Origin: Escherichia phage JLK-2012
Direction: 5' to 3' (one strand)
DNA: 57,198 nt
Sequence record: NC_049942.1
Positions 10,547 to 10,825 of the stretch are shown piece after piece (position 1 is the first letter of the stretch; each line of letters begins with the position of its first letter). The position numbers were made by a program, and so were the translations under genes. The notes below the pieces were generated by a model, which saw only the letters and a program-made list of their open reading frames with translations, ran no database searches and was not told the DNA's origin.

Positions 10547-10825
10547 CCGTAGATTCATATTCGAATCGTTGTATATTCACCGCCCTGGTGAGTAATGCGT
10601 CCTGCTGACGACGATAATAATGAACCAATAGTTCGACATTATCAAGAACTATTGGTACGAATTTTGGTGATTTATTAACTCTACGAAGTATGATTCTGAT
10701 ATATAAGGAAATTTATTTTTGAAAATGTGGCTGATGAAGGTTATGCGGCAGGGATCATAACTGCATGGTTTAGCGAGTTACATCAATAAATACAATTGGT
10801 TATGTTTTTTAGGTGGGCGAACGTG

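What the first reader, a model, noticed from the sequence alone, without database searches (positions are those of the whole stretch)
10625..10655. 31-bp palindromic element in the presumed pL/OL region
CCAATAGTTC-N11-GAACTATTGG lies between the immunity-operon terminator and the N leader. It does not resemble the half-sites in the cI-cro intergenic region (ACTTTCAGT/ACTGAAAGT), so it may bind a different regulator or form an RNA or DNA hairpin.
Basis: seen in the sequence. Interest (0 to 1): 0.35.

Follow-up and report, generated by a model that had tools for sequence, protein, structure and literature searches.

The report
Phage 933W left operator OL1/OL2
The palindrome is two neighbouring, already characterised binding sites (OL1 and OL2) for the cI repressor of Shiga-toxin phage 933W, lying over the leftward early promoter pL; it is real but ordinary and already known.

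Summary
The inverted repeat is real and one base longer per arm than reported: ACCAATAGTTC / GAACTATTGGT, 10624-10634 and 10646-10656, with an 11-nt spacer. The N-to-terminator region (10368-10870) is 100% identical to Shiga-toxin phage 933W. A GenBank record of the same sequence annotates OL1 and OL2 repressor binding sites over the two arms.

Each arm is the core of one 15-bp cI operator: OL1 is 10621-10635 and OL2 is 10645-10659, centres 24 bp apart. The two are inverted relative to each other.

ACTTTCAGT/ACTGAAAGT are the cores of whole operators OR2 and OR1, not half-sites. The true half-site is xG(A/T)AC(T/C)x, and both arms carry it. A matrix trained only on OR1-3 ranks OL1 4th and OL2 6th of 57,184 positions.

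Phages with the same N leader but another repressor DNA-binding domain lose homology at about 10608. They carry their own operators in the same columns, lambda OL1/OL2 in HK106. A candidate pL (-35 TTGATA, -10 CATTAT) aligns with lambda pL, which puts the palindrome upstream of the transcript start.

Verdict: already known, low interest.

The parts
10624..10656 (.). 33-bp perfect hyphenated palindrome: 11-nt arms ACCAATAGTTC / GAACTATTGGT with an 11-nt spacer. This is the reported element extended by 1 bp on each side.
10621..10635 (.). OL1, a 15-bp 933W cI operator, TGAACCAATAGTTCG. It lies in the spacer of pL and overlaps the -10 hexamer by 2 bp.
   Evidence: GenBank GQ499361.1 annotates 'OL1 repressor binding site' at the equivalent of 10621-10636. 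It ranks 4th of 57,184 positions with the OR-trained matrix. The register agrees with the position-by-position description in PMC3317979.
10645..10659 (.). OL2, a 15-bp 933W cI operator, AGAACTATTGGTACG (reverse complement CGTACCAATAGTTCT). It abuts the -35 hexamer of pL and overlaps it by 1 bp.
   Evidence: GenBank GQ499361.1 annotates 'OL2 repressor binding site' at the equivalent of 10643-10658. My 15-bp register is shifted 1-2 bp so that it fits the published half-site rules. It ranks 6th with the OR-trained matrix.
10640..10645 (-). Candidate pL -35 hexamer TTGATA, inside the spacer of the palindrome.
   Evidence: Promoter scan. It aligns column for column with TTGACA of the annotated lambda-type pL of HK106. 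All five spacer variants among 57 of the 58 viral contigs end in TCAA, which keeps TTGA on the - strand; the 58th, L016 with a 20-nt spacer ending in TGTG, does not.
10617..10622 (-). Candidate pL -10 hexamer CATTAT, 17 nt from the -35 hexamer.
   Evidence: Promoter scan. It aligns with GATACT of the lambda-type pL in HK106.
10607..10611 (-). Inferred pL transcription start, about 10609. It is homologous to the lambda pL +1 in ATCAGCAGGACGC.
   Evidence: Inference from the position of the -10 hexamer and from the alignment. The sequence of the lambda pL start is from my own knowledge. No transcript data were available.
10533..10599 (-). nutL (boxA/boxB) of the N leader.
   Evidence: Annotated in AF125520.1 and GQ499361.1 on identical sequence.
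9984..10367 (-). N antitermination gene, the first gene of the pL operon.
10834..10857 (-). tM, the intrinsic terminator that ends the cI-stk (pRM) operon.
   Evidence: Terminator scan and the 933W annotation.
12994..13701 (-). cI repressor gene (235 aa, HTH_3 plus Peptidase_S24 domains), whose product binds OL1 and OL2.
13694..13708 (.). OR3, TGAACCATGAGTACG.
   Evidence: Annotation; sequence.
13726..13740 (.). OR2, AAAACTTTCAGTTCA.
   Evidence: Annotation; sequence.
13750..13764 (.). OR1, CGTACTGAAAGTACG.
   Evidence: Annotation; sequence.

Best explanation
The palindrome is the left operator of a 933W-type Stx prophage. It consists of two 15-bp, individually dyad-symmetric binding sites for the phage's own cI repressor: OL1 at 10621-10635 and OL2 at 10645-10659. 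The sites are inverted relative to each other, share an identical 11-bp core, and have centres 24 bp apart. They lie over the leftward early promoter pL on the - strand. OL1 fills the -35/-10 spacer and touches the -10 hexamer. OL2 abuts the -35 hexamer, which sits in the 'loop' of the palindrome. In a lysogen, one cI dimer on each site keeps RNA polymerase off pL, so N and the leftward early genes stay silent. Inactivation of the repressor by RecA-stimulated autocleavage, the standard lambdoid mechanism, frees pL. Shown here: sequence identity with 933W OL, the match to the operator motif, co-inheritance with the repressor's DNA-binding domain, and positional equivalence with lambda OL1/OL2 and pL. 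Taken from the literature: repressor binding and affinities. Inferred: the exact promoter hexamers, the transcription start, and steric occlusion as the mode of repression.
For: 1. Window 10368-10870 is 100% identical to phage 933W AF125520.1 and to GQ499361.1. GQ499361.1 annotates OL1 and OL2 repressor binding sites over the two arms and nutL just downstream.
2. PMC3317979 lists five natural 933W repressor sites: OR1, OR2, OR3, OL1 and OL2. Each is 15 bp and rotationally symmetric. Positions 2-5 are conserved, position 6 is T in 7 of 10 half-sites and C in 3, and the centre is an A-T pair. OL2 is the second strongest site, OL1 is of similar strength, and there is no OL3. My register of the five sites reproduces every one of those counts.
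3. A matrix trained on the OR half-sites alone ranks OL1 4th and OL2 6th of 57,184 positions. Random sequences give 0.63 hits at that score, and none of 60 simulations gave two hits within 40 bp. The pattern GWACY-N3-RGTWC hits only OL1, OL2, OR3 and OR1, with 0.33 expected.
4. Phages with the same cI (phi315, PhiR12_4, Stx2_13E027) keep both operators exactly, even where the flanks diverge. BP-4795 and Stx1a_NIID132265 have the same N leader and the same cI C-terminal domain but a different N-terminal domain. HK106 has a lambda-type repressor. All three lose homology at about 10608 and carry other operators in the same columns; in HK106 these are lambda OL1/OL2.
5. Of 58 viral contigs with the exact arms, 50 encode a full-length cI at least 98% identical 0.9-2.4 kb away, and one more holds a truncated match.
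6. In an unrelated phage background (L054), whose repressor is only 30% identical, the five best motif hits in 14.8 kb are the OL pair and three sites in the cI-cro gap. One of those three is identical to that phage's own OL1.
7. TTGATA-17 nt-CATTAT on the - strand aligns with the annotated lambda-type pL of HK106.
Against: No binding or transcription experiment can be run here. The primary papers (Koudelka et al. 2004, Tyler et al. 2004, Bullwinkle and Koudelka 2011) are not held in the library. Binding is therefore taken from the 2012 paper's account and from the GenBank annotation. The pL hexamers and the start site are inferred, not mapped. The GenBank operator boundaries (16 bp each) differ from my 15-bp register by 1-2 bp at OL2. 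The perfect 11-bp identity of the cores is more than the recognition rules strictly require, so an additional constraint is not excluded.
Confidence: 0.95

Rival explanations
1. The palindrome binds a regulator other than cI, either a host factor or another phage protein.
For: The central bases of the OL sites (CCAATAG) differ from those of OR1 and OR2 (CTGAAAG). By analogy with other lambdoid phages, Cro is expected to bind the same operators. That is from general knowledge and was not tested.
Against: Both arms carry the conserved cI half-site, and an OR-only matrix ranks them just behind OR1-3. The element swaps together with the cI DNA-binding domain, while the N leader and the cI C-terminal domain stay the same. 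PMC3317979 reports the central positions 6-8 as weakly specified and read indirectly, and it lists OL1 and OL2 among the repressor's natural sites. In L054 the same CCAATAG core also occurs in the cI-cro gap.
Confidence: 0.02
2. The palindrome acts as a nucleic-acid structure: an RNA hairpin in the N leader or in read-through immunity transcripts, or a DNA cruciform.
For: The 45-nt stretch folds better than shuffled sequences. As DNA the energy is -9.3 kcal/mol (z = -4.85), and as - strand RNA it is -13.9 kcal/mol (z = -4.27).
Against: A favourable fold follows automatically from any perfect inverted repeat. The element lies at about -15 to -47 relative to the inferred pL start, so it is outside the N leader. 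The tM terminator at 10836-10857 stands between it and the cI-stk operon. The stem is A+T-rich with an 11-nt loop and no T-run, and the terminator scan does not call it. No Rfam family matches 10300-10900 at E-values up to 1. In heteroimmune phages the same columns hold non-palindromic pairs of operators, so the position needs operators, not a hairpin.
Confidence: 0.03
3. The palindrome is a chance inverted repeat with no function.
For: A single perfect 11-nt inverted repeat could arise by chance in 57 kb. About 0.27 are expected per window in simulations.
Against: The element is conserved exactly wherever the cognate cI is present, including across diverged flanks and in a second phage lineage. 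It coincides with annotated operators and with the promoter hexamers.
Confidence: 0

Closest known systems
Bacteriophage 933W left operator OL (OL1 and OL2), described by the Koudelka and Friedman laboratories and annotated in GenBank GQ499361.1
   Same: The sequence of the whole N-to-tM region is identical. The positions of OL1, OL2 and nutL are the same. Both have two sites only, with no adjacent third site.
   Different: Nothing of substance differs. My 15-bp register for OL2 (10645-10659) is offset by 1-2 bp from the 16-bp GenBank feature. The window's prophage differs from 933W elsewhere, for example by an IS insertion at about 8254-9467.
Bacteriophage lambda OL1-OL2 / pL
   Same: Both have two repressor sites with centres 24 bp apart. 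The promoter-proximal site lies in the -35/-10 spacer and the second site lies at the -35 hexamer. In the alignment with HK106, which has lambda-type immunity, the lambda operators and pL hexamers occupy the same columns as the 933W ones.
   Different: Lambda operators are 17 bp with a different half-site (TATCACCGC), and lambda has a third site, OL3. According to PMC3317979, the 933W repressor does not bind adjacent sites cooperatively and 933W lacks OL3. Lambda OL1 and OL2 do not form a long perfect palindrome.
933W right operator pair OR1-OR2
   Same: It uses the same half-site. The two sites are likewise inverted copies sharing a core (ACTGAAAGT), with centres 24 bp apart.
   Different: The central bases differ: CTGAAAG in the OR pair against CCAATAG in the OL pair. 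The shared core is 9 nt rather than 11 nt. By the 933W annotation, OR2 lies in the spacer of pR and OR1 lies over the start region, one operator step further downstream relative to the promoter than at pL. OR also has a third site, OR3.

Membership tests
933W-type cI operator (lambdoid immunity operator) | A 15-bp rotationally symmetric site with half-site xG(A/T)AC(T/C)x and an A-T centre | tested here: met
   OL1 is TGAACCA-A-TAGTTCG and the reverse complement of OL2 is CGTACCA-A-TAGTTCT. They rank 4th and 6th of 57,184 positions with a matrix trained only on OR1-3. GWACY-N3-RGTWC hits only OL1, OL2, OR3 and OR1, with 0.33 expected. The counts per position match the description in PMC3317979.
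933W-type cI operator (lambdoid immunity operator) | Overlaps an early lytic promoter, so that a bound repressor excludes RNA polymerase | tested here: met
   TTGATA (10645..10640), 17 nt, CATTAT (10622..10617) on the - strand. The hexamers align with the annotated lambda-type pL of HK106. The promoter itself is inferred, not mapped.
933W-type cI operator (lambdoid immunity operator) | Co-inherited with the cognate repressor DNA-binding domain (an immunity module) | tested here: met
   Phages with the same cI keep the sites. Phages with a different cI N-terminal domain or a lambda-type repressor replace them at the same position, with the homology break at about 10608. Of 58 viral contigs with the arms, 50 carry a full-length cI at least 98% identical nearby and one more holds a truncated match.
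933W-type cI operator (lambdoid immunity operator) | Identity with the experimentally defined 933W OL | tested here: met
   100% identity to AF125520.1 and GQ499361.1. The latter annotates the OL1 and OL2 repressor binding sites.
933W-type cI operator (lambdoid immunity operator) | Direct, specific binding by the purified repressor | not testable with these tools
   Reported in the literature. PMC3317979 describes affinities for the five natural sites, with OL2 second strongest and OL1 similar. The primary papers are not held.
Lambda-paradigm tripartite OL (OL1-OL2-OL3) | A third operator adjacent to the first two | tested here: not met
   No further high-scoring site lies next to OL2. The nearest operator-like 15-mer is 11273-11287, about 620 bp away inside stk. 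PMC3317979 states that 933W has no OL3.
Intrinsic terminator or structured leader RNA | A G+C-rich stem followed by a T-run, or a match to a known RNA family, located within a transcript | tested here: not met
   The terminator scan calls only the tM region at 10836-10857 (once on each strand), not the palindrome. Rfam finds nothing in 10300-10900. The element lies upstream of the inferred pL start.
nut site (boxA/boxB) | A boxA sequence plus a boxB hairpin in the N leader | tested here: not met
   The annotated nutL is at 10533-10599, separate from the palindrome and downstream of it.

The most novel reading that the evidence does not exclude
The perfect 11-bp identity of the two operator cores in inverted orientation goes beyond what the recognition rules need, since positions 6-8 are weakly specified. 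The same arrangement is kept in a second phage lineage whose repressor is only 30% identical (L054). This could reflect a selected property beyond two independent dimer sites. Possibilities are a symmetric higher-order repressor or Cro complex centred on the -35 hexamer, cruciform extrusion that modulates pL, or shared operator specificity (cross-immunity) between distantly related repressors.
Probability: 0.05. Interest if true: 0.4.

Novelty: already known. Interest (0 to 1): 0.07.

Why it matters
OL/pL of 933W-type prophages controls N and the leftward early genes. It is therefore part of the switch that decides prophage induction, and with it Shiga toxin 2 release in E. coli O157:H7. The operators have already been mapped and their affinities measured, so re-identifying them in this window adds no new biology. 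The useful results are two corrections. A minor by-product is a distantly related repressor lineage that carries the same operator sequences.

Tried and rejected
1. RNA or DNA hairpin. The fold is favourable, as it must be for any perfect inverted repeat. However, the element is upstream of the inferred pL start, lacks terminator features and has no Rfam match. Rejected.
2. A different regulator. Rejected on the motif tests and on the exchange of the immunity module between phages.
3. Reading the primary experimental papers (PMC524894, PMC524892, PMC3133280). They are not held in the library, so I relied on PMC3317979 and the GenBank annotations.
4. Using the 58 viral contigs to test conservation of the arms. 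This is not valid, because the search required exact arms. I used them only for spacer length and sequence (11 nt in 57 of 58; five variants, all ending in TCAA) and for co-occurrence with cI.
5. Reverse matrix test, trained on the OL sites only. OR3 ranks 3rd, OR1 11th and OR2 43rd. The result is weaker because only four half-sites were used and the central bases differ. It is consistent with the main conclusion but less decisive than the forward test.
6. Looking for the window's IS element in AP004402. It is absent there.

Full report
**Observation.** The sequence at 10625-10655 reads CCAATAGTTC, then an 11-nt spacer GACATTATCAA, then GAACTATTGG, exactly as reported. The perfect complementarity extends one base on each side. 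This gives 11-nt arms at 10624-10634 and 10646-10656, a 33-bp element. Perfect inverted repeats with arms of at least 11 nt and a spacer of at most 20 nt occur 9 times in the window, against 0.27 expected in first-order Markov simulations. The stated context is correct. To the right lies an intrinsic terminator on the - strand (10836-10857) that ends the cI-stk operon. To the left lie the N gene (9984-10367, - strand) and its leader.

**Identity of the region.** Window 10368-10870 is 100% identical to phage 933W (AF125520.1 9449-9951) and to many Stx1- and Stx2-converting phages. The 933W record annotates N, nutL (window 10533-10599), tM, stk, cI, OR1-3 and cro in the same order as the window. 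A second record of identical sequence is GQ499361.1, the immunity region of phage 32deltatox. It annotates an 'OL1 repressor binding site' at the equivalent of 10621-10636 and an 'OL2 repressor binding site' at the equivalent of 10643-10658. The two arms of the palindrome are therefore the cores of the two annotated left operators.

**Literature.**
- Bullwinkle, Samorodnitsky, Rosati and Koudelka (PLoS One 2012, PMC3317979) describe five naturally occurring 933W repressor sites: OR1, OR2, OR3, OL1 and OL2.
- Each site is 15 bp and rotationally symmetric about a central A-T pair. Positions 2-5 are conserved. Positions 4 and 5 are invariant A and C. [quoted passage not shown] Position 6 is T in seven half-sites and C in three.
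- They state that OL2 is the second strongest natural site and that OL1 is of similar strength. They also state that 933W has no OL3 and that the repressor does not bind adjacent sites cooperatively.
- The primary papers they cite for footprinting and promoter work are not held in the library. These are Koudelka et al. 2004, Tyler et al. 2004, and Bullwinkle and Koudelka 2011. I rely on the 2012 account of them.

In the 15-bp register the five sites are as follows.

| Site | Coordinates | Sequence |
|---|---|---|
| OR1 | 13750-13764 | CGTACTGAAAGTACG |
| OR2 | 13726-13740 | AAAACTTTCAGTTCA |
| OR3 | 13694-13708 | TGAACCATGAGTACG |
| OL1 | 10621-10635 | TGAACCAATAGTTCG |
| OL2 | 10645-10659 | AGAACTATTGGTACG |

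These ten half-sites reproduce every count given in the paper: G at position 2 in 9 of 10, AC at positions 4-5 in all ten, T:C of 7:3 at position 6, and A or T at the centre. They are the central 9 bp of the whole operators OR2 and OR1. Like OL1 and OL2, these two are inverted copies of each other with centres 24 bp apart. The true half-site is xG(A/T)AC(T/C)x. Both arms of the OL palindrome contain it twice, as GAAC...GTTC and GAAC...GTAC.

**Quantitative test of resemblance.**
- A dyad weight matrix built only from the six OR half-sites was scanned over all 57,184 positions of the window. It ranks OR1, OR2 and OR3 first, as expected for training sites, then OL1 4th and OL2 6th.
- Random sequences of the same composition give 0.63 hits at or above the OL2 score. 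None of 60 simulations gave two such hits within 40 bp.
- The simple pattern GWACY-N3-RGTWC has exactly four matches in the window: OL1, OL2, OR3 and OR1. By chance 0.33 are expected.
- The reverse test, a matrix trained on the OL half-sites only, recovers OR3 at rank 3, OR1 at rank 11 and OR2 at rank 43. This is weaker because the central bases differ and only four half-sites were used.

**Why it is a long palindrome.** Each operator is itself nearly self-complementary: 5 of 7 positions for OL1 and 4 of 7 for OL2. Any two sites for the same dimer therefore resemble each other in both orientations. OL1 and OL2 agree at 10 of 15 positions as direct copies and at 12 of 15 as inverted copies. The 33-bp dyad arises because the asymmetric centre (CCAATAG) is identical in the two sites and inverted.

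**Promoter.** The only sigma-70-like match in 10300-11100 is on the - strand: TTGATA at 10645..10640, a 17-nt spacer, then CATTAT at 10622..10617. I aligned the window with HK106. That phage shares the N leader but has a lambda-type repressor and an annotated 'lambda PL'-like promoter. In this alignment TTGATA and CATTAT fall in the same columns as lambda's TTGACA and GATACT. OL1 and OL2 fall in the same columns as lambda OL1 (TATCACCGCCAGTGGTA) and OL2. The leader sequence GTCAGCAGGACGC at 10609 downward corresponds to the start of the lambda pL transcript, ATCAGCAGGACGC; that sequence is from my own knowledge. The start is therefore inferred at about 10609. This places the palindrome at about -15 to -47, in promoter DNA and not in the N leader RNA.

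**Comparative evidence that the element is the immunity-specific operator.**
- Phages encoding the same cI keep both operators exactly. These are phi315 and PhiR12_4 (100% identical) and Stx2_13E027 (99%). Stx2_13E027 has a diverged leftward flank and one substitution in the spacer.
- BP-4795 and Stx1a_NIID132265 have the same N leader. Their cI has a C-terminal domain 95% identical to that of 933W, but the N-terminal 81 residues are unrelated. Their homology to the window stops at about 10608, and different dyads occupy the operator columns.
- A scan of IMG/VR for the two arms with any spacer of 1-30 nt found 58 contigs. In 57 of them the spacer is 11 nt, in five sequence variants that all end in TCAA, which preserves TTGA of the -35 hexamer. 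The 58th, L016, has a 20-nt spacer that ends in TGTG.
- Of these 58, 50 encode a full-length cI at least 98% identical 0.9-2.4 kb away, and L014 holds only a truncated match. In four no cI was found; two of these (L044, L048) hold little sequence on one side of the element.
- Three contigs (L026, L054, L061) carry the element in an unrelated background, with a repressor only 30% identical overall but similar in the helix-turn-helix region. In L054 the five best motif hits in 14.8 kb are the OL pair (3130-3144 and 3154-3168, 24 bp apart) and three sites in the cI-cro gap. The site nearest cro (6891-6905, TGAACCAATAGTTCA) is identical to that phage's OL1. The 'OL-type' core therefore also serves as a right operator in a relative.

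**Rivals.**
- Structure. The sequence folds better than shuffles, at -9.3 kcal/mol as DNA and -13.9 kcal/mol as RNA. That is automatic for a perfect inverted repeat. The element is upstream of the pL start and is shielded from the cI-stk transcript by tM. It is A+T-rich with an 11-nt loop and no T-run, and it has no Rfam match.
- A different regulator. This is made very unlikely by the motif tests and by the co-exchange of the element with the repressor's DNA-binding domain.
- Chance. This is excluded by the conservation.

**Mechanism.** cI dimers occupy OL1 and OL2 independently of each other. Independence follows from the reported lack of cooperativity. The bound dimers cover the -35/-10 spacer and the -35 flank of pL and exclude RNA polymerase, which silences N and the leftward early operon in the lysogen. 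Loss of repressor on SOS induction frees pL. The sites and their affinities are published. Steric occlusion and the exact promoter are inferred from geometry and from the lambda homology.

**Verdict.** The element is the already characterised 933W OL1/OL2. Novelty: already known. Interest: low.

Noticed in passing
L054:3130-3168 and L054:6834-6905 (also L026, L061): Three IMG/VR contigs carry the same 11-nt arms and 11-nt spacer in an unrelated phage background. The cI-like repressor (L054:6098-6841, - strand) is only 30% identical to 933W cI. The five best operator-motif hits of this locus are an OL pair and three sites in the cI-cro gap, with spacings of 24 and 33 bp. This suggests shared operator specificity, and possibly cross-immunity, between distant repressors.
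   Followed up: partly
L016:3962-4009 and L016:4486-4525: One contig has the same arms separated by 20 nt instead of 11. The element lies just downstream of a short 127-aa HTH repressor-like gene. Similar sites (ACAACCATCAGTTCC and GGAACTATTGGGTTG) lie in its divergent promoter region.
   Followed up: partly
window 11273-11287: AGTACATCTAGTACG inside the stk kinase gene is an operator-like 15-mer, ranked 7th with the OR-trained matrix, about 620 bp from OL2. One half-site has A at position 6, which PMC3317979 reports as disfavoured, so it may be a weak or non-functional site.
   Followed up: no
window 8254-9467: An IS3-family insertion sequence, with ORFs carrying HTH_Tnp_1 and rve integrase-core domains, sits between the ea10/ssb homologue and the ORF upstream of N. 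It is absent at this place in 933W and in Stx2 converting phage I. The window's prophage is therefore a 933W-type phage with an extra IS. From memory it resembles IS629, but I did not verify that.
   Followed up: partly
window 13726-13764: OR1 and OR2 are also inverted copies of each other. They share the 9-bp core ACTGAAAGT, and their centres are 24 bp apart, the same geometry as OL1 and OL2. By the 933W annotation of pR, OR2 lies in the promoter spacer and OR1 over the start region, one operator step further downstream than the arrangement at pL.
   Followed up: partly
window 10608: There is a sharp mosaic boundary. Phages of different immunity (HK106, BP-4795, Stx1a_NIID132265) share the N leader up to about 10608 and diverge completely from there, immediately downstream of the pL -10 hexamer. 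BP-4795 and Stx1a_NIID132265 also share the cI C-terminal domain (95% identity) but not residues 1-81. This implies a second recombination junction inside cI.
   Followed up: partly
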